Of a DNA stretch of 11,865 nt, positions 49 to 10,210 are shown in pieces. This DNA comes from a virus. The first letter of the stretch is position 1. Each line of letters opens with the position of its first letter. A program made the position numbers and the translations under genes. The notes beneath the pieces are model-generated. The model saw nothing but the letters and a program-made list of their open reading frames with translations. It ran no database searches and was not told where the DNA came from. The DNA lies in UHGV virus genome UHGV-1591674. One strand, written 5' to 3'.

Positions 49-456
49 TTATTTTTTTTCTGTTCGTTTGCGGGCTTTTAGGAGTTCTTCGAAGAGCTGG
101 TTGAAGTTTTCAACTCGAGCCCGGAGATTTTGGATTTGAGCTTGTTGCTCTGATTCTGGCAAAGAGCGATAGAGCTCAAGCATCTCTTGTTCATCAACGC
201 TTAAAGTTCTCTGCTCTTCAATTGAGACTGGTTCTGCAGGAGTCTGGTCTTCATCACCAAACAAAATCCAAGTAGGGCTGCACTGGAGCACCTTAGCAAG
301 TGCATGCAGGTTCTTACCTGAAGGCTCTGTGTTGTCACTTTCCCATAGCGAAATAGTGGCGTGCGATATCCCGAGAGCTTTTCCAAGATCTCGCTGCGTT
401 AACCCAACATCTTTGCGTCGACGTAATACTCGACGGCCTAAAGTTTCACTATTCAT
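49..456 (-). CDS. Phage repressor, short XRE-family HTH protein (CI-like, lacking an S24 peptidase/autocleavage domain)
   Basis: 135-aa minus-strand ORF, ATG at 456-454 and TAA at 51-49. N-terminal HTH signature LTQRDLGKALGISHATISLWES, then a charged, probably coiled C-terminal tail. Divergent to the cro-like gene. No Shine-Dalgarno upstream, so the mRNA may be leaderless as for lambda cI from PRM. Confidence 0.85.
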   Translation of the reverse strand: MNSETLGRRVLRRRKDVGLTQRDLGKALGISHATISLWESDNTEPSGKNLHALAKVLQCSPTWILFGDEDQTPAEPVSIEEQRTLSVDEQEMLELYRSLPESEQQAQIQNLRARVENFNQLFEELLKARKRTEKK

Positions 457-4088: not shown

Positions 4089-4339
4089 CTATATTCGAAT
4101 ACATTCAGTCTCACCCAAATACCACCAGCAGTGAAATAGCCAGGAGCATGAATAAAAACCCTTCTTCAGTCTCGGGCATGCTGTCACAACTCTACAGTGC
4201 TGGTCGGATCGTAAAGTCTGGTGTTCGCAGGGGTGTCCCTGCATACCGTGTTAACGATATGCCGTTTGGGTGCAGTAACAGCTTAACCATGATGTTTAAC
4301 CAACTATTGAACAGAGCCAGACAGGGAGCTGCACAATGA
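4085..4339 (+). CDS. Hypothetical winged-helix DNA-binding protein
   Basis: 84-aa ORF. SSEIARSMNKNPSSVSGMLSQLYSAGRI parallels the wHTH segment of the 2984..3646 product. Translationally coupled on both sides. Confidence 0.7.
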   Translation: MTIFEYIQSHPNTTSSEIARSMNKNPSSVSGMLSQLYSAGRIVKSGVRRGVPAYRVNDMPFGCSNSLTMMFNQLLNRARQGAAQ

Positions 4340-5214: not shown

Positions 5215-5493
5215 GTGGTGTTTGACCCACCGCATCTCGAGCGCGTTGGCCAGTCTGCCTGGATGGGTAAAAAATACGGGCGACTGAACAAAAAAACGTG
5301 GCGCTCTGACTTACGCGCCGGTTTCAAAGAGGCTTTTCGCGTACTGCGGCCACATGGCGTGCTCATATTCAAATGGAACGAGACGCAGATCCCGGTTAGC
5401 CAGATTCTGGCGCTTACAGATGTGAAACCTGCAATTGGTCAGCGTACCGGGAAGAACGACAAAACCCACTGGATTATTTTTGTGAAGGACTAA
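5215..5493 (+). CDS. DNA methyltransferase-like N-terminal fragment (amino-methyltransferase motif IV DPPH; probably truncated or pseudogenised)
   Basis: Product carries SSFPVVVFDPPHL (DPP[YFH] motif IV) and AGFKEAFRVLRPHGVLIFKW (the RVLKPGG-type motif of beta-class N6/N4 methyltransferases), but no FxGxG AdoMet motif. Only 92 aa from the first canonical start (GTG 5215, no Shine-Dalgarno). The frame is open upstream to 5062 with methyltransferase-like sequence. Confidence 0.55.
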   Translation: MVFDPPHLERVGQSAWMGKKYGRLNKKTWRSDLRAGFKEAFRVLRPHGVLIFKWNETQIPVSQILALTDVKPAIGQRTGKNDKTHWIIFVKD

Positions 5494-5496
5494 CTC

Positions 5497-5877
5497 ATGG
5501 CAACTAACAACCACCCGGCGCAAGGTCCTGTATCTGTCGATCGCCTGCACCAGATAAGCGAAATACTCAGCAAAGCAGCAGCACAAAGCGACGGCGGTAA
5601 TCTCGGCTACGCAATGGCTGATGCTGTGAAGGTTATCGACGAGTTGCTGTCGGTGCGGAAGACGGCGGCGCAGGAAGCGGTGTATCAGGTATTAGACGAT
5701 GGAAGTTGGACTGATTACAGCAAACAGCAACTGGAGGTCCTGCTTGAATCGAAACCATCCACACTTTTCCGAGTTGCCTACCCATCTCCAAGTTTAACGC
5801 AGCCAGCGCCGGTAGTGGATGATGCTGTGAAGGTGATTGAATGGGTGCTTGAAGCGAGGAATGCGGGGTCGGAATAA
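5497..5877 (+). CDS. Hypothetical phage protein with internal duplicated motif
   Basis: 126-aa ORF. GAAGGA seven nt upstream of ATG 5497. Internal repeat ADAVKVIDELL / DDAVKVIEWVL. Followed by an intrinsic terminator. Confidence 0.7.
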   Translation: MATNNHPAQGPVSVDRLHQISEILSKAAAQSDGGNLGYAMADAVKVIDELLSVRKTAAQEAVYQVLDDGSWTDYSKQQLEVLLESKPSTLFRVAYPSPSLTQPAPVVDDAVKVIEWVLEARNAGSE

Positions 5878-6011: not shown

Positions 6012-6794
6012 GTGACAACAAAGAATCGACACGGTCTTTCTCGGCAAGTGCCTGCAGAGGTTAAACGAGTTATCAGGCAAAGATGTGGATTTGGCTGCGT
6101 GATCTGTGGCTTCGGATTCTATGAGTACGAGCACTTCGATCCAGATTTTGCTGATGCTACCGAACACAACCCTAATGGAATGACATTGTTATGTTCTCAA
6201 TGTAACCAGAAACGAGCCAGGGGCAGACTGTCCGCTGAAAAGGTTGCTTCAGCTAATGCTCATCCTAAGTGCCTTCAACAAGGGTTTGCGAATGAGCTTT
6301 TTGATTTTCATAGCGAACCATTGGAAATAGTTTTGGGTGGATTAACGTTCTACAACTGCGAGCACCTTATAGTAGTAAATGATAGGCCTATCTTGTCTGT
6401 TCAGTCATCTCCTGAACCAAACTCTCCAATGTTACTCTCGGGAGTATTCTGCGATGTACTAGGAAGGGAGATGTTAAGAATCCATGAGAATGAATGGTCT
6501 GTTAATTTAGATAATTGGGATGTTGACTGTGAGGGGCCGAGAATAACCATTAGAAGTGCTCCCCGTCAGATTGCCCTTGTTTTGAAAATGAATCCCCCGA
6601 GGGGAATAATTGTAGAGCGATTAGACATGACTTTTGAGGGGGTAAGATTTATAGGGGATGAGCAGAACTTGCGATTTACTATGGATGGAAGTAACTGGCA
6701 TAAGTGGTCTGGCTGCTCAATGAGGAACGGCTATGTAGGTATAGCCATTGAGACTAGGCCAAGAGCGGCAAACGATCCTATGTATATATTATGA
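6012..6794 (+). CDS. HNH endonuclease-domain protein (N-terminal zinc-finger HNH, C-terminal domain of unknown function), AT-rich acquired gene
   Basis: 260-aa ORF with GTG start at 6012. N-terminal motif RCGFGCVICGF...YEYEHFDP...HNPNGMTLLCSQCNQKR fits the CxxC...H...N...CxxC HNH fold. Hand-sampled 60-nt lines give about 40-47% GC against about 60% in a flanking phage gene. Preceded by a terminator. In frame with the downstream methyltransferase fragment, separated by a single TGA (6792-6794). Confidence 0.8.
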   Translation: MTTKNRHGLSRQVPAEVKRVIRQRCGFGCVICGFGFYEYEHFDPDFADATEHNPNGMTLLCSQCNQKRARGRLSAEKVASANAHPKCLQQGFANELFDFHSEPLEIVLGGLTFYNCEHLIVVNDRPILSVQSSPEPNSPMLLSGVFCDVLGREMLRIHENEWSVNLDNWDVDCEGPRITIRSAPRQIALVLKMNPPRGIIVERLDMTFEGVRFIGDEQNLRFTMDGSNWHKWSGCSMRNGYVGIAIETRPRAANDPMYIL

Positions 6795-6806
6795 ATTACT
6801 TTCTAT

Positions 6807-7061
6807 TTGTTAATACTGCAACCACATGAGCTTTACCGTGCTCAGGGCTTCCCTGAGTGGTACATCATTGACCAGGACTATCGGGGCAAGAAGTACGCAA
6901 AAGACAAACAAGTTGCCCGCTGTGGTAACGCCGTACCACCGCCGTTCGCTGAAGCGCTGGTCCGGGCTATTTACCGGAGCTTTGTCAGCAGAAAGAAATT
7001 GCAGCTTAATGTCCGAGTTTCAGAGCAGGGTGTAACAAATCCTGCTACTTCAATGACGTAG
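6807..7061 (+). pseudogene. C5-cytosine DNA methyltransferase C-terminal fragment (motifs IX and X only)
   Basis: PHELYRAQGFPEWY and RCGNAVPPPFAEALVRAI correspond to C5-methyltransferase motifs IX (LQGFP) and X (GNAV), matching the C-terminus of the full enzyme at 8717..10210 (RLQGFPD...AIGNSMAVPV). No motifs I, IV or VI precede it. A second diverged copy of its 3' end lies at about 7452-7580. Confidence 0.55.
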
Positions 7062-7070
7062 ATTCAAACT

Positions 7071-7079
7071 TGATATAAT
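7071..7079 (+). promoter_or_regulatory. Extended -10 promoter (TGATATAAT) for the small gene 7108..7344
   Basis: TG at 7071-7072 followed by a perfect TATAAT at 7074-7079, about 30 nt upstream of ATG 7108. Shine-Dalgarno GAGGA at 7096-7100. A hairpin AGGCTC (7080-7085) / GAGCCT (7099-7104) overlaps the ribosome-binding site. Confidence 0.4.
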
Positions 7080-7107
7080 AGGCTCTTCACAACACGAGGA
7101 GCCTAAA

Positions 7108-7344
7108 ATGCACCATTACATGATCCCTATCAACGGAACTGTTCACCTGATTAAGACTGATTCTCTAATCCCTGAAGGGACTGAGTATAGCTTTGAAGGA
7201 GAAAGTCTAATCTGCGCTCATGCCACTTTTAAATCTGGGACGTATGGCTTCCTGATACCAAAGGGAAATCAGTTGAATAGAGAGCATGCGTTCTGGCATG
7301 TAAGTGGAATTCACCCTAACCCCCTGGAAATAGATAAACCGTAA
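7108..7344 (+). CDS. Hypothetical small protein (AT-rich moron, unknown function)
   Basis: 78-aa ORF with a strong ribosome-binding site and its own promoter-like element. Lies between two diverged copies of a methyltransferase 3' end. No recognisable motif. Confidence 0.6.
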   Translation: MHHYMIPINGTVHLIKTDSLIPEGTEYSFEGESLICAHATFKSGTYGFLIPKGNQLNREHAFWHVSGIHPNPLEIDKP

Positions 7345-7447
7345 TCCACATGCCATCGCCCTGAACACACGGTGGCATGCATCCGGCACTTTAACGGAAA
7401 CGTTAAAGTGCAAAATACAATTCGAGCAATATTCAACCAGTTAAAGA

Positions 7448-7587
7448 TGGCGAATACCACCGCCATTTCGTGCCTTCTGCTGTTTCTATTACCCATTACG
7501 CTAATCCTGCCCAAACATCAGCTCGCTGAGGCGCTGGTTAGGGCTAACCTACAGGAGCTTTGTCAGCATAAACAAATAGCGGCGTAA
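7448..7587 (+). pseudogene. Degenerate second copy of the C5-methyltransferase 3' end
   Basis: DNA at 7452-7461 (TACCACCGCC) and 7522-7580 aligns with 6933-7005 at roughly 80% identity, interrupted by a ~50-bp insertion. The track ORF 7372..7587 ends in AEALVRANLQELCQ, mirroring AEALVRAIYRSFVS in the 6807..7061 fragment. Confidence 0.45.
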
Positions 7588-7604
7588 TAAAACATTGCTA
7601 ATTC

Positions 7605-7632
7605 AACCCACTACGGCGGGTTTTCTTTTTTT
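7605..7632 (+). terminator. Rho-independent terminator
   Basis: Stem AACCC (7605-7609) / GGGTT (7618-7622) followed by TTCTTTTTTT (7623-7632). Confidence 0.5.
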
Positions 7633-7694
7633 CCTACTGACAGAAAATTAACAATTTGTGCTCTTAAAACGTTGATCATTTTCGTGCATAGGTA

Positions 7695-7714
7695 TACTGT
7701 ATAAAAATACAGTA
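7695..7714. promoter_or_regulatory. LexA box (SOS operator) overlapping the dinI-like promoter
   Basis: Perfect 20-bp palindrome TACTGTATAAAAATACAGTA matching the CTGT-N8-ACAG LexA consensus. It lies 19 nt upstream of the ATG of a DinI homolog. -35-like TTGATC at 7672-7677 and -10-like TATACT at 7693-7698 overlap the box. Confidence 0.75.
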
Positions 7715-7732
7715 TATGCAATGGAGGCCATT

Positions 7733-7969
7733 ATGAAAGTTGAATTAACCATTGATCGCATGAAAGAACTTCCTAAAGGCGCGGTACCAGCACTGGAGAA
7801 AGAATTGCTTAAGCGTCTGAATGATCACTATGACAATTGCAGACTCACAATCCGCCGTGCCGGTTCAGATGGGTTAAGTGTTTTTGGCGGTGACAAGGAC
7901 GACAAAAAGAAAATTGAATCAATCCTCCAGGATACCTGGGAAAGTGCAGACGAGTGGTTTGTTAACTAA
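7733..7969 (+). CDS. dinI: DinI-family DNA-damage-inducible protein
   Basis: GGAGG at 7723-7727 five nt before ATG 7733. Product ends ILQDTWESADEWFVN, closely matching E. coli DinI (ILQETWESADDWFV). A LexA box sits immediately upstream. Confidence 0.85.
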   Translation: MKVELTIDRMKELPKGAVPALEKELLKRLNDHYDNCRLTIRRAGSDGLSVFGGDKDDKKKIESILQDTWESADEWFVN

Positions 7970-8417: not shown

Positions 8418-8720
8418 ATGAGCAGATCAAAGACCAAAGCCGAAAAACTTCATCTTTCCCGCGTAGCCGGGCTGGGTTGTATTGTCTGCAAAAACCTGAA
8501 GCTGGGTGAAACCCCAGCAGAGATACATCACATCCGAACTGGCCAGGGAGTTGGCCAGCGCGCTGACAATTTCAAAGTTATTCCTCTTTGCCCAATCCAT
8601 CACCGTCAGGGCGGACACGGCATAGCCATTCATGCTGGCCGCCAGTCCTGGGAAAACAATTTCGGTACTGAAACAGAGTTGCTGGTGCAGGTTCTCTACG
8701 AACTGGGGGAATCAGCGTGA
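8418..8720 (+). CDS. Ref-like recombination-enhancement HNH-type nuclease (small phage HNH protein)
   Basis: Start at ATG 8418 (GGTGGTG upstream). Product contains CIVC...EIHHIRTGQG...CPIHHRQGGHG, a CxxC/HH pattern typical of Ref-family HNH proteins. Stop overlaps the GTG start of the methyltransferase (GTGA at 8717-8720). Confidence 0.65.
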   Translation: MSRSKTKAEKLHLSRVAGLGCIVCKNLKLGETPAEIHHIRTGQGVGQRADNFKVIPLCPIHHRQGGHGIAIHAGRQSWENNFGTETELLVQVLYELGESA

Positions 8721-10210
8721 GTATTACTTATGGTTCAGTATGTAGTGGAATTGAGGCTGCAAGTATAGCGTGGGAGGTTTTGGGCTGGCGACCGTCATGG
8801 TTCTCTCAGTTCGATCCTGAACACAATTATAAAAACGGTCCAGATTTCCCATCCGCTGTTCTGGCGTATCGCTGGCCGCACGTAACAAACCTCGGTGATA
8901 TGACCAAAATCGCTGCAGCAATACGGCGCGGAGAAATCCAGGCACCAGACATTCTGGTTGGTGGCACACCGTGCCAGGCATTCAGCATCGCTGGTTTGCG
9001 CAATGGTCTGACTGATTCCCGCGGTCAATTAACTCTCGCCTTTGTAGAACTGGTAAACGCAATAGATGAAAAACGAAGAGAACAGGGAAAACCTCCCGTC
9101 ATTGTCGTCTGGGAAAACGTACCCGGAGTATTCAGCAGCAGAGATAACGCTTTCGGATGTTTTCTTGCAGGGCTTGCCGGCGAAAGCCGTGAACTGGAAT
9201 CACCAGGGCGAAAATGGACAAACGCTGGTTATGTGCTGGGACCAGAAAGGGCTGTCTGCTGGCGAGTGCTCGATGCTCAATTTTTCGGAGTGGCCCAACG
9301 ACGCCGCCGTGTGTTTGTTGTCGCAAGCGCTAGAACCGATATCGATCCCGCAAAAATACTTTTTGAGTCCGAAGGCCTGCGCCGGGATACTCCGCCGCGC
9401 CGAAAAGCGGGGAAGGGCATTACCGCAAATACTGGGCGTCGCATTGCTAACGGTAGCCACTGGGATGGGGAATATAATCCACATCCAACCCTCAACCAGT
9501 CACACAACATTGGGGGCATAGGTCAAAGCAACCAGGAATTATTCAGCCAGCGCGGAGGTGGAATCGTTGGTGTCTTTCGCATGCGGGCATTTGGTGATTA
9601 TGTTAATGATGAAACCTCATCCACTGTTAAAGCGCGCGACCATAAAGATGCAACCGATCTCACTGTCACTTATTCGGACGTCAGCAGGACATTGCTTGCC
9701 AAATCTAATGACAGCATGGCTGAAGATTTGGATACATATGCCATTCACGGCACACAAGACCCTGGCACGCTCAAAGACATGGCTCATACACTGGGGCGCA
9801 ATCATGGGCAGGAGAATGCCGTTGCTTATGCATTCAAGGCTGGTCAGGGTGCAAAAGCTGGTGGCATTGGCTGGGCAGAGGAACAATCCCCGACACTGAC
9901 TGCCGCCAGCAGTGGATCGAATTTATCCCCTTCAGTGATGAAAAATATGACCGTTCGCCGCCTGACGCCTGTCGAATGCGAGCGCCTGCAGGGCTTCCCC
10001 GATAACCACACTTTAATCCCCCGGGGTAAGCGCAAGCAGATTACGGCGGATGAATACGCCTATGTGCGCCACCACAACCCAAAGATAACAGCAGAGGAAG
10101 CCTACCGACTGGCGAAAGATGGTCTGCGCTACAAAGCGATCGGCAACAGCATGGCCGTACCGGTTATGCACTGGATCGGTAAAAGAATTAAGGAGGCTCT
10201 TAATGCCTGA
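8717..10210 (+). CDS. DNA (cytosine-5)-methyltransferase
   Basis: 497-aa ORF carrying motif I (GSVCSGIEA), motif IV (GGTPCQAFSIAG), motif VI (VVWENVPG), motif IX (RLQGFPD) and motif X (AIGNSMAVPV). About 245 aa separate the ENV region from motif IX. Translationally coupled to the upstream Ref-like gene and to rusA downstream. Confidence 0.9.
   Translation: MSITYGSVCSGIEAASIAWEVLGWRPSWFSQFDPEHNYKNGPDFPSAVLAYRWPHVTNLGDMTKIAAAIRRGEIQAPDILVGGTPCQAFSIAGLRNGLTDSRGQLTLAFVELVNAIDEKRREQGKPPVIVVWENVPGVFSSRDNAFGCFLAGLAGESRELESPGRKWTNAGYVLGPERAVCWRVLDAQFFGVAQRRRRVFVVASARTDIDPAKILFESEGLRRDTPPRRKAGKGITANTGRRIANGSHWDGEYNPHPTLNQSHNIGGIGQSNQELFSQRGGGIVGVFRMRAFGDYVNDETSSTVKARDHKDATDLTVTYSDVSRTLLAKSNDSMAEDLDTYAIHGTQDPGTLKDMAHTLGRNHGQENAVAYAFKAGQGAKAGGIGWAEEQSPTLTAASSGSNLSPSVMKNMTVRRLTPVECERLQGFPDNHTLIPRGKRKQITADEYAYVRHHNPKITAEEAYRLAKDGLRYKAIGNSMAVPVMHWIGKRIKEALNA

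What the first reader, a model, noticed from the sequence alone, without database searches (positions are those of the whole stretch)
6931..7580. Tandem, diverged duplication of the methyltransferase 3' end flanking the small gene
Sequence at 6933-7005 recurs at 7452-7580. An identical 10-mer TACCACCGCC opens both copies (6933-6942 and 7452-7461), followed by GCTGAAGCGCTGG versus GCTGAGGCGCTGG and an identical GGAGCTTTGTCAGCA block. Identity is about 80% outside a ~50-bp insertion in the second copy. Fainter similarity extends upstream (a shared CCACATG near 6821 and 7345). The small gene 7108..7344 sits between the copies. Repeated target fragments bracketing a cassette suggest insertion by recombination at a short conserved segment, or repeated homing events with co-conversion.
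Basis: seen in the sequence. Interest (0 to 1): 0.6.

Follow-up and report, generated by a model that had tools for sequence, protein, structure and literature searches.

The report
Methylase gene-end relics bracketing a prophage cassette
Two diverged copies of the last ~66-100 bases of a phage DNA-methyltransferase gene flank a small accessory gene in a lambda-like prophage. They are a scar of recombination between related phages, an ordinary but cleanly documented example of how such phages trade gene cassettes.

Summary
The repeat is real. Window 6946-7010 and 7523-7588 align over 66 columns at about 83% with one 1-nt indel (z = 23 against shuffles). Both are the last 21 codons plus stop of a 715-aa C5 cytosine methyltransferase that is intact in Klebsiella and IMG/VR phages. 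The shared 10-mer lies at 6934/7455, is not colinear, and sits in a hairpin. The "~50-bp insertion" does not exist: copy 2 continues colinearly, about 50% identical, back to about 7488. CCACATG at 7345 comes from a lineage-private 7-nt deletion.

Related phages give the history. MTase is followed directly by terminator and dinI in Klebsiella phage 5. MTase is followed by the promoter and the small gene in other phages. Phage mEp237, about 32 E. coli prophages and 5 IMG/VR contigs with an intact MTase carry both arrangements fused: copy 1, promoter, 78-aa gene, structured spacer, stub, terminator, dinI.

The best model is an out-of-register crossover between two lambdoid phages, followed by recombination within the short conserved segment. 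E. coli M172-1 is an exact 588-bp deletion between the copies. In this window both copies are pseudogene relics. Homing is not supported. This is a new member of a known kind, of low to moderate interest.

The parts
6813..7010 (+). Copy 1: a remnant of the C5-MTase gene (about aa 652-715, motifs IX-X, QGFP...GNAVPPPFAEALV). The ancestral stop TAA is at 7007-7009. One A is missing at 6969/6970, which shifts the frame and extends the listed ORF to 7061. The first ~644 codons of the gene are absent.
   Evidence: tblastn with the Klebsiella phage 5 MTase and blastn 6813-7005 at 79%. Pfam PF00145, E 6.4e-6. The 1-nt deletion is seen against mEp237 and E. coli prophages. Restoring the A gives ...ANLPELCQQKEIAA*.
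6946..7010 (+). Core repeat, copy 1: the last 21 codons, the stop and 1 nt.
7011..7107 (+). Cassette 5' part. It carries an extended -10 promoter-like TGATATAAT at 7071-7079, a 6-bp hairpin 7080-7085/7099-7104 that overlaps the Shine-Dalgarno GAGGAG (7096-7101), and has 42% GC.
   Evidence: Read from the sequence. The mEp237 record annotates a promoter at the equivalent place. The segment is contiguous with the MTase stop in both variant-A and variant-B loci, 84% over 6813-7121. GC.
7108..7344 (+). 78-aa gene of unknown function (phrog_30079), the cassette's payload.
   Evidence: PHROG E 2.3e-47; no Pfam, NCBIfam or PADLOC match. 96-100% identical in 24 IMG/VR contigs and in mEp237. A 41-45% identical variant B follows an intact MTase. 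The AF2 model has pLDDT 67 and no PDB match.
7345..7487 (+). Cassette 3' spacer. It is non-coding and structured, with hairpins at 7349-7379, 7386-7411 (perfect 11 bp, GAAA loop) and 7445-7468.
   Evidence: RNA fold z = -4.3 with 0 of 200 shuffles as stable. Hairpins 1 and 3 are kept in relatives through one-sided changes. Indels of 7, 2 and 1 nt separate lineages. A conserved 25-mer from this spacer occurs only on contigs that carry the small gene.
7488..7522 (+). Distal part of copy 2: a decayed MTase remnant (aa ~684-695, about 50% identical) with an extra A at 7520.
   Evidence: nhmmer colinear alignment in relatives. tblastn aa 684-715 in L014-L018. Fixed-offset identity 15/30.
7523..7588 (+). 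Core repeat, copy 2: MTase aa 695-715 plus the stop TAA at 7585-7587. It is a different allele from copy 1 and is not part of any intact gene here.
   Evidence: It is 93-97% identical to single stubs in other E. coli prophages, and the stub-to-dinI stretch 7523-7760 is 94-95% identical in those that keep dinI.
7605..7632 (+). Intrinsic terminator that follows the MTase stop in the ancestral arrangement.
   Evidence: A similar hairpin with a T-run follows the intact MTase in Klebsiella phage 5 and the stub in ST846-OXA48phi9.2.
7695..7969 (+). LexA-box-like palindrome TACTGTATAAAAATACAGTA (7695-7714) and dinI (7733-7969), the ancestral downstream neighbour of the MTase.
   Evidence: Pfam DinI E 2.3e-25. 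The sequence itself. MTase-dinI adjacency in L008.
6012..6794 (+). HNH-like ORF (260 aa, phrog_6544) that forms this lineage's private left junction with copy 1. It is context, not part of the repeat unit.

Best explanation
The window is the immunity-replication-nin region of a lambda-like prophage. The two repeats are two alleles of the 3' end of one phage gene, a 715-aa C5 cytosine methyltransferase whose ancestral downstream neighbours are an intrinsic terminator and dinI.

Inferred origin: a phage carrying 'MTase - promoter - 78-aa gene - structured 3' region' crossed over out of register with a phage carrying 'MTase - terminator - dinI'. The join fell about 100 nt before the recipient's MTase stop. 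The product kept a complete MTase (copy 1, contiguous with the cassette) and a displaced, useless stub of the recipient's gene end (copy 2, contiguous with terminator and dinI).

Shown by comparison: the two ~66-nt cores, 80-85% alike, have since served as substrates for recombination between short diverged sequences. Such events delete the cassette, swap alleles and move module boundaries.

Inferred consequence: the core of the stub is repeatedly refreshed or exchanged, while its distal 35 nt only decays. This would explain the jump from about 50% to about 83% identity at 7522/7523.

In this window the MTase has also been destroyed. Codons 1 to ~644 are replaced by other ORFs, including an HNH-like gene, and copy 1 carries a 1-nt deletion. 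Both copies are therefore pseudogene relics with no function of their own. The only likely functional unit between them is the small moron-like gene.
For: (1) The repeat is significant and derives from the MTase.
(2) All three predicted arrangements exist.
- MTase directly followed by terminator and dinI: Klebsiella phage 5 LV-2017.
- A stub followed by terminator and dinI: ST846-OXA48phi9.2, E. coli KL53 and ECCWS199; two Citrobacter species carry a stub plus terminator.
- An intact MTase followed directly by the same promoter and a variant-B small gene, with no downstream stub: L038, L040, L041.
- An intact MTase, then cassette, then stub (followed by terminator and dinI in four of the five): L016, L017, L018, L031, L034.
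(3) The fused module is conserved at about 92% in phage mEp237 and about 32 E. coli genomes, but copy 1 has at least four different left junctions. The truncations are therefore later and independent.
(4) The two copies are different alleles. The copy 2 signature AAACAAATAGCGGC occurs in intact MTase genes of L038-type phages, and copy 1 type ends occur in intact genes of L016-type phages.
(5) E. coli M172-1 equals AR_0118 minus exactly 588 bp. Its single remnant is identical to copy 1 for 114 nt and to copy 2 thereafter, and the crossover is confined to GAGGC. The left flank has 5 mismatches in the proximal ~2.8 kb, and the right flank has none in the first 1125 nt.
(6) The window-versus-mEp237 comparison is a patchwork: up1 79%, core1 85%, intergenic 95%, gene 97%, spacer 87%, distal stub 85%, core2 98%, downstream 95%.
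(7) The spacer travels only with the small gene.
(8) The cassette is 44% GC against 50% for the window and 52% for copy 1.
(9) Phage Rad52-like recombinases are documented to recombine short sequences diverged by more than 10% (PMC3945230).
Against: No donor carrying the variant-A gene and spacer without a downstream stub was found, so the founding out-of-register event is inferred, not observed. The direction of the M172-1/AR_0118 difference (deletion or insertion) rests on parsimony. Core 2 is better conserved between the window and mEp237 (1 difference in 66 nt) than the adjacent spacer (about 13% divergence), which could instead mean functional constraint on the stub. The window itself shows no phage recombinase gene, so the enzyme responsible is unknown.
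Confidence: 0.78

Rival explanations
1. In-situ tandem duplication of the MTase 3' end, by slippage or unequal sister exchange within one phage. The two copies then diverged and the small gene was inserted between them.
For: The arrangement is tandem and direct, and both copies end at the same stop codon position.
Against: Identity changes abruptly from about 83% in the core to about 50% in the distal 35 nt, which uniform decay of one duplicate does not explain. Each core matches a different allele class that is found in intact genes of other phages. The copy 1 end is contiguous with the cassette promoter even in phages that have no second copy.
Confidence: 0.05
2. Homing: a free-standing endonuclease cut the MTase 3' end, and repair from a donor co-converted the flanks and inserted the cassette, possibly repeatedly.
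For: An HNH-like ORF (6012-6794) abuts copy 1 in the window. A homologue lies about 0.9 kb upstream of an MTase stub in Klebsiella phage ST846-OXA48phi9.2.
Against: The HNH-like ORF is outside the repeat unit and absent from mEp237, from the E. coli prophages examined and from all IMG/VR loci with the same tandem except the two identical to the window. The cassette ORF has no nuclease signature. Homing normally leaves a clean insertion, not a 100-nt diverged duplication.
Confidence: 0.03
3. The stub is retained because it is functional. It could be part of a 3'-end-derived RNA ending at the terminator, a signal needed for dinI-region expression, or the C-terminus of a small hydrophobic peptide (ATG 7447 to 7587, 46 aa) whose start codon sits in hairpin 7445-7468.
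For: At least six independent 5' truncations all keep the last 66 nt or more before the terminator. Core 2 differs by 1 of 66 nt between the window and mEp237, against about 13% divergence in the spacer. The first 24 codons of the 46-aa ORF have no indels in any lineage and stay hydrophobic. The upstream RNA is strongly structured.
Against: There is no Rfam match. The fold of 7523-7635 is not unusual, z = -1.4. All 7 substitutions in the hydrophobic segment between the window and mEp237 are non-synonymous. The ATG is ATT in L013, and a 1-nt indel changes the C-terminal frame in L014-L018. The ORF has no family match. Retention is also expected if deletions must spare the terminator and dinI promoter, and if recombination keeps re-importing the segment.
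Confidence: 0.1
4. Chance similarity in this base composition.
For: None beyond the weak upstream motifs, the CCACATG and the 10-mer, which do look like chance.
Against: z = 23 against shuffles. Both copies hit the same MTase residues at the protein level. The feature is conserved across many genomes.
Confidence: 0.01

Closest known systems
Morons and out-of-register 'novel joints' in lambdoid phage mosaicism (Hendrix/Juhala model; cited from my own knowledge of the HK97/HK022 literature)
   Same: A small transcription unit with a promoter-like site, lower GC and an unknown ORF sits between two genes that are adjacent in a related phage (MTase and dinI in Klebsiella phage 5). Its boundaries coincide with a gene end.
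   Different: The insertion left a visible ~100-nt duplicate of the upstream gene's 3' end, so the register error of the founding crossover can be read directly. No canonical terminator closes the unit: there are hairpins without a T-run.
Relaxed homologous recombination between short diverged sequences by phage Rad52-like recombinases (De Paepe et al. 2014, PMC3945230)
   Same: Mosaic boundaries lie in short stretches of partial identity (66 nt, 80-85%), equivalent to that paper's 'HR traces'. Exchanges occur among temperate phages and prophages of enterobacteria.
   Different: Here the partially identical stretches are in direct repeat within one genome, so they also cause deletion (M172-1). 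That paper notes that phage genomes usually lack repeats. No recombinase gene is present in this 11.9-kb window.
icd / icdC flanking prophage e14 (and phage 21) in E. coli K-12 (Hill et al. 1989; PMC13626634)
   Same: An inserted element is bracketed by a gene whose 3' end it supplies and by the displaced C-terminal pseudogene fragment. Loss of the element recombines the two into a chimeric gene end, just as M172-1 looks relative to AR_0118.
   Different: e14 uses a site-specific integrase and an att site inside icd. No integrase, att-like inverted repeat or other mobility gene is associated with this 0.5-kb cassette, and the host 'gene' is itself a phage accessory gene.
[quoted passage not shown] 2010, PMC2839356)
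   Same: Short repeated sequences flanking non-essential genes act as recombination substrates for insertion, deletion and replacement. Recombination between neighbouring repeats could release a small circle carrying the gene.
   Different: PeSLs are dedicated promoter and stem-loop elements dispersed many times in a genome. Here the repeat is a relic of a coding sequence, present only twice, and no circle has been shown.

Membership tests
C5 cytosine DNA methyltransferase gene (PF00145), functional member | Complete catalytic core: motifs I-VIII including the PCQ cysteine, plus motifs IX-X | tested here: not met
   Only profile positions 278-323 of 324 are present in copy 1. tblastn of the 715-aa homologue finds only aa 645-713 and 695-715 in the window. 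Copy 1 is also frameshifted. Both copies are remnants, not genes.
C5 cytosine DNA methyltransferase gene (PF00145), derived remnant | Significant sequence homology to the C-terminal motifs IX/X of intact family members | tested here: met
   Copy 1: E 2.5e-28. Copy 2: E 3e-4, extended to aa 684 in relatives.
Moron (lambdoid accessory transcription unit) | Lies between two genes that are adjacent in a related phage | tested here: met
   MTase and dinI are adjacent in Klebsiella phage 5 LV-2017. They are separated by the cassette in the window, mEp237 and L016-type phages.
Moron (lambdoid accessory transcription unit) | Own promoter and own terminator, expressed from the prophage | tested here: inconclusive
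   An extended -10 TGATATAAT lies at 7071-7079, and the mEp237 record annotates a promoter. The simple scan did not call it because the -35 is poor. Downstream hairpins lack a T-run. Expression cannot be tested with these tools.
Moron (lambdoid accessory transcription unit) | Base composition differs from its neighbours | tested here: met
   The cassette is 44.0% GC, against 52.0% for copy 1 and 50.0% for the window. However, dinI is also 43.5%.
Homing-endonuclease cassette | An endonuclease gene inside the inserted segment | tested here: not met
   The only ORF between the repeats has no nuclease or other family match and no PDB fold match. The HNH-like ORF is outside the unit and lineage-private.
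Transposon / IS target-site duplication | Short identical direct repeats next to terminal inverted repeats and a transposase | tested here: not met
   The repeats are 66-100 nt and 83% identical. No transposase-like ORF and no terminal inverted repeats were found at the cassette ends.
Site-specific integration with replacement of a gene's 3' end (e14/phage 21 in icd type) | Duplicate of the target gene's 3' end on both sides of the insert | tested here: met
Site-specific integration with replacement of a gene's 3' end (e14/phage 21 in icd type) | Integrase/recombinase gene carried by the insert, with identical att core at both ends | tested here: not met
   The insert is about 0.5 kb with one 78-aa ORF. 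The longest exact match between the copies is 17 nt inside the core, and the ends are not identical.
Mosaic joint formed by relaxed homologous recombination | Exchange boundaries fall in stretches of partial identity above background | tested here: met
   The M172-1 crossover lies in GAGGC inside the core. Segment identities alternate between 79-87% and 95-98%, with switches at or within the cores.

The most novel reading that the evidence does not exclude
The 66-nt methyltransferase end may work as a portable homology arm. Recombination between the two copies would release a ~0.59-kb circle (hybrid core, promoter, 78-aa gene, spacer, distal stub). One crossover could then re-insert that circle into the 3' end of any related MTase gene in another phage, recreating the tandem and leaving the recipient gene intact. 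That would make this a recombinase-free, homology-guided gene cassette system at the MTase|dinI boundary of lambdoid phages, analogous to the PeSL mini-circles of T4-type phages. It would also explain why the distal stub always travels with the small gene while the core matches the recipient's allele.
Probability: 0.15. Interest if true: 0.5.

Novelty: new member of a known kind. Interest (0 to 1): 0.27.

Why it matters
The locus preserves all the intermediate states of one mosaic event in lambdoid phages. These are the uninterrupted MTase-dinI arrangement, the donor-like MTase-cassette arrangement, the fused product with a readable register error, later 5' truncations, and a natural deletion between the repeats with the crossover mapped to 5 nt.

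That makes it a convenient natural test case in the debate between illegitimate and short-homology recombination in phage mosaicism. It is also a practical warning for annotation. ORFs 6807-7061 and 7372-7587 are relics, not genes, and the mEp237 'DNA methyltransferase' gp46 is a fragment. It does not reveal a new kind of system. The 78-aa gene remains of unknown function.

Tried and rejected
1. I rejected it in favour of a colinear ungapped extension. nhmmer gives E = 1.1 for the 10-mer region, tblastn reaches aa 684-715 in L014-L018, and the fixed-offset identity test agrees.
2. MTase ancestry of the spacer 7345-7487. Identity is at chance level at the colinear offset (22-28%). nhmmer finds no hit when the core is removed, though that run passed no residues through its filters and is weak evidence.
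3. A third copy at the end of the intact second C5-MTase (8717-10210). It has an unrelated tail, GNSMAVPVMHWIGKRIKEALNA.
4. Known RNA families. None were found in the whole window at gathering score, nor at E <= 1 in 6700-7800.
5. Function of the 78-aa protein.
- No Pfam, NCBIfam or PADLOC match, and PHROGs gives only an unannotated family.
- Only 2 clusters in the 5.8-billion-protein search.
- The AF2 model has pLDDT 67 and no PDB match with E < 0.1.
6. GTDB species-representative genomes.
- The small gene was not found.
- A 24-nt core pattern found only two Citrobacter single stubs.
7. A search for the spacer in another context. All 23 IMG/VR hits are contigs that also carry the small gene.
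8. A literature search for mEp237 returned only unrelated DOI strings.
9. A possible short stub in L039 (blastn extension from w7556). On inspection it is the end of an unrelated 72-aa ORF, so I did not count it.
Full report
**1. Context**

The window is the early region of a lambda-like prophage. PHROG and Pfam matches identify these genes:
- a CI-like repressor (49-456, minus strand) and a CII-like activator;
- O-like and P-like replication proteins and Ren-like proteins;
- a run of small accessory ORFs;
- DinI (7733-7969);
- an intact 497-aa C5 methyltransferase (8717-10210);
- RusA and a Q-like antiterminator.

Two IMG/VR contigs (L011, L012) are 100% identical over the region tested. Phage mEp237 and about 32-50 E. 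coli chromosomes carry the finding's region at about 92% identity.

**2. The observation**

A local alignment of 6790-7070 against 7330-7600 returns one segment, 6946-7010 against 7523-7588. It has 66 columns, about 83% identity and a single 1-nt indel. The score is 70, against 17.6 +/- 2.3 in 1000 dinucleotide-preserving shuffles, so z = 23. The repeat finder reports the same two blocks.

Both copies are the last 21 codons plus the stop of a C5 cytosine methyltransferase.
- The intact 715-aa homologue from Klebsiella phage 5 LV-2017 ends ...GNAVPPPFAEALVRANLPEMCLKKDIAA*.
- It hits window 6795-7001 (aa 645-713) and 7522-7584 (aa 695-715).
- Pfam PF00145 matches copy 1 at the extreme C-terminus of the profile.

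Copy 1 in this window lacks one A at 6969/6970 relative to mEp237 and three E. coli prophages. With that A restored it reads ...ANLPELCQQKEIAA* and stops at 7007-7009, the same position as copy 2's stop at 7585-7587. The listed ORF 6807-7061 is therefore a frameshifted remnant. ORF 7372-7587 merely runs into the stub.

**3.

The 10-mer.
- TACCACCGCC is at 6934 and 7455.
- A DNA profile of 17 distinct MTase 3' ends aligns the stub colinearly, without a gap, for about 98 nt before the stop in L016, L018 and L014. In those loci it reads ITHCVNAVQSSLAEALV, a decayed VARCGNAVPPPFAEALV.
- The window and mEp237 lineages differ from these by one extra A (7520). The 10-mer region scores only E = 1.1.
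- tblastn independently extends the stub to aa 684 in L014-L018.
- At the colinear offset, 7489-7518 is 15/30 identical (37 of 11635 offsets do as well), and 7446-7488 is at chance level.

So copy 2 spans about 7488-7588 with a sharp drop from about 83% to about 50% identity at 7522/7523. There is no 50-bp insertion.

The 10-mer lies in the loop and 3' arm of a hairpin (7445-7468). That hairpin belongs to a strongly structured spacer (7340-7525: z = -4.3).

CCACATG at 7345 results from a 7-nt deletion private to this lineage, and it is out of register.

**4. Comparative anatomy**

Four arrangements exist.
- (a) MTase, terminator, dinI with nothing between them: Klebsiella phage 5 LV-2017.
- (b) A single MTase stub, with varied 5' breakpoints, followed by the terminator (and by dinI where the downstream gene was examined):
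  - E. coli KL53, aa ~684-715;
  - ECCWS199, from about aa 694;
  - Klebsiella phage ST846-OXA48phi9.2, aa 656-715;
  - Citrobacter pasteurii and Citrobacter sp., stub plus terminator only.
- (c) An intact MTase followed directly by the same ~100-nt promoter region and a 41-45% identical variant B of the small gene, then a terminator and holE, with no second MTase fragment: L038, L040, L041. MSB1_9D has a truncated MTase in this arrangement.
- (d) The fused arrangement of the window: copy 1, promoter, variant-A gene, spacer, stub, then usually terminator and dinI.
  - It occurs with an intact 715-aa MTase in L016, L017, L018, L031 and L034.
  - It occurs with four or more different 5' truncations of copy 1 elsewhere. 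These are the window itself, mEp237 (aa 594-715), AR_0118/L019-type (from QGFP, aa 661) and L013 (from inside the core at w6981).

The spacer is never found without the small gene. The truncations are therefore secondary. The tandem arose in a phage whose MTase was, and remained, intact.

**5. Mechanism**

Copy 2 adjoins the ancestral downstream neighbour. The 3' end of copy 1 is contiguous with the cassette promoter in both (c) and (d). The two cores belong to different allele classes, each found in intact genes elsewhere.

The simplest origin is one out-of-register crossover between two syntenic lambdoid genomes. The donor would be of type (c) and the recipient of type (a). The join would link the donor's sequence downstream of the small gene to a point about 100 nt before the recipient's MTase stop. 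This step is inferred, because no stub-less variant-A donor was found.

What happened afterwards is visible. E. coli M172-1 differs from AR_0118 by exactly 588 bp.
- Its single remnant is identical to copy 1 for 114 nt and to copy 2 from there on.
- The crossover is confined to the pentamer GAGGC at the start of the core.
- The left flank shows 5 mismatches in the proximal ~2.8 kb, and the right flank shows none in the first 1125 nt.

The window and mEp237 are a patchwork: up1 79%, core1 85%, intergenic 95%, gene 97%, spacer 87%, distal stub 85%, core2 98%, downstream 95%. The differences in core 1 are concentrated in its first 25 nt.

This fits recombination of short sequences more than 10% diverged, as documented for phage Rad52-like recombinases (PMC3945230). 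It would also explain why the stub's core looks 'fresh' while its distal part, too diverged to recombine, has decayed.

**6. Rivals**

- In-situ duplication does not explain the identity step or the allele classes.
- Homing is unsupported. The cassette ORF has no nuclease signature. The HNH-like ORF 6012-6794 is outside the unit and private to the window's lineage. A homologue does lie upstream of another MTase stub in one Klebsiella phage.
- A function for the stub cannot be excluded. Core 2 is unusually conserved and all independent truncations spare it. Against this, Rfam finds nothing and its fold is unremarkable (z = -1.4). The 46-aa hydrophobic ORF 7447-7587 shows only non-synonymous change, a lost ATG in L013 and a frame-changing indel in L014-L018.

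**7. Comparison with known systems**

It works like a moron insertion with an out-of-register novel joint (Hendrix model, from my own knowledge), followed by relaxed homologous recombination (PMC3945230).

Structurally it mirrors icd/icdC around prophage e14, including the chimeric gene end formed on loss of the insert (PMC13626634). It lacks an integrase or an att core.

It also resembles PeSL-mediated shuffling in T4-type phages (PMC2839356). Here, however, the repeat is a coding-sequence relic present only twice.

It is not a transposon target duplication, an intron or intein, or a homing cassette.

**8. Verdict**

This is a real feature, correctly spotted but partly mis-aligned. It is an ordinary kind of scar in lambdoid phage evolution, with an unusually complete set of natural intermediates. 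I class it as a new member of a known kind, with interest about 0.27.

The most novel reading not excluded is a homology-guided cassette that moves through a small circle using the MTase end as a portable arm. I put its probability at about 0.15.

Noticed in passing
window 1757, 2595, 8404, 9857, 11589, 11768 (+) and 4122-4129 (-): There are seven exact Chi octamers (GCTGGTGG) in 11.9 kb, against 0.41 expected from shuffles. Six are on the + strand. None lies inside the repeat, although some MTase-end alleles carry 7-of-8 variants (GCTGGTGA or GCTGGTGC) at the ALV codons, right next to the observed crossover site.
   Followed up: partly
window 7349-7379, 7386-7411, 7445-7468: Three hairpins follow the small gene's stop. 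The middle one is a perfect 11-bp stem with a GAAA loop. The region folds far better than shuffles (z = -4.3). None is followed by a T-run. Hairpins 1 and 3 are kept in relatives by one-sided changes, while hairpin 2 is degraded in the mEp237 lineage. They may act as an RNA 3'-end stabiliser or an atypical terminator.
   Followed up: partly
window 7447-7587 (+): A 46-aa ORF, MANTTAISCLLLFLLPITLILPKH..., has one hydrophobic helix, and its ATG is paired in hairpin 7445-7468. This is superficially like a type I toxin. Its first 24 codons have no indels in any lineage. However, the changes are all non-synonymous, the ATG is lost in L013, and the tail's frame varies.
   Followed up: partly
window 6012-6794 (+): A 260-aa ORF with an N-terminal Cys-rich HNH-like region (phrog_6544; weak HNH PHROG hits; faint IscB HNH-region hit, E 0.004). 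Its stop codon is followed in the same frame by the MTase remnant. Its only phage-database homologue (65% identity, Klebsiella phage ST846-OXA48phi9.2) also lies upstream of an MTase stub and dinI.
   Followed up: partly
related loci L003/L004, L005, L006, L007, L035, L036, L037: Independent 5' truncation points of this MTase cluster near the conserved motif IX/X codons (QGFP at aa 661-665, VARCGNAV at aa 684, PPPF/AEAL at aa 694). This may reflect recombination with other MTase genes at conserved motifs, or it may only reflect the limits of detection.
   Followed up: no
window 5215-5493 (+) and 5497-5877 (+): A 92-aa ORF (GTG start) matches only the C-terminal half of phage class I SAM-dependent DNA methyltransferases (phrog_954 positions 115-201 of 229), so it may be a second MTase remnant. 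It is followed by a 126-aa ORF of unknown function (phrog_6144). Together with the HNH-like ORF, they occupy the place of MTase codons 1-644.
   Followed up: no
window 8717-10210 (+): An intact 497-aa C5 cytosine methyltransferase of a different lineage (GTG start; tail GNSMAVPVMHWIGKRIKEALNA) lies 1.1 kb downstream. The prophage therefore still encodes a cytosine methylase even though the one studied here is destroyed.
   Followed up: partly
window 7080-7104 (+): A six-bp hairpin AGGCTC...GAGCCT in the small gene's leader overlaps the Shine-Dalgarno sequence GAGGAG. This could allow translational control.
   Followed up: no
window 7695-7714 (+): A near-perfect LexA-box palindrome, TACTGTATAAAAATACAGTA, lies 19 nt upstream of the dinI start, as expected for an SOS-regulated phage dinI.
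   Followed up: no
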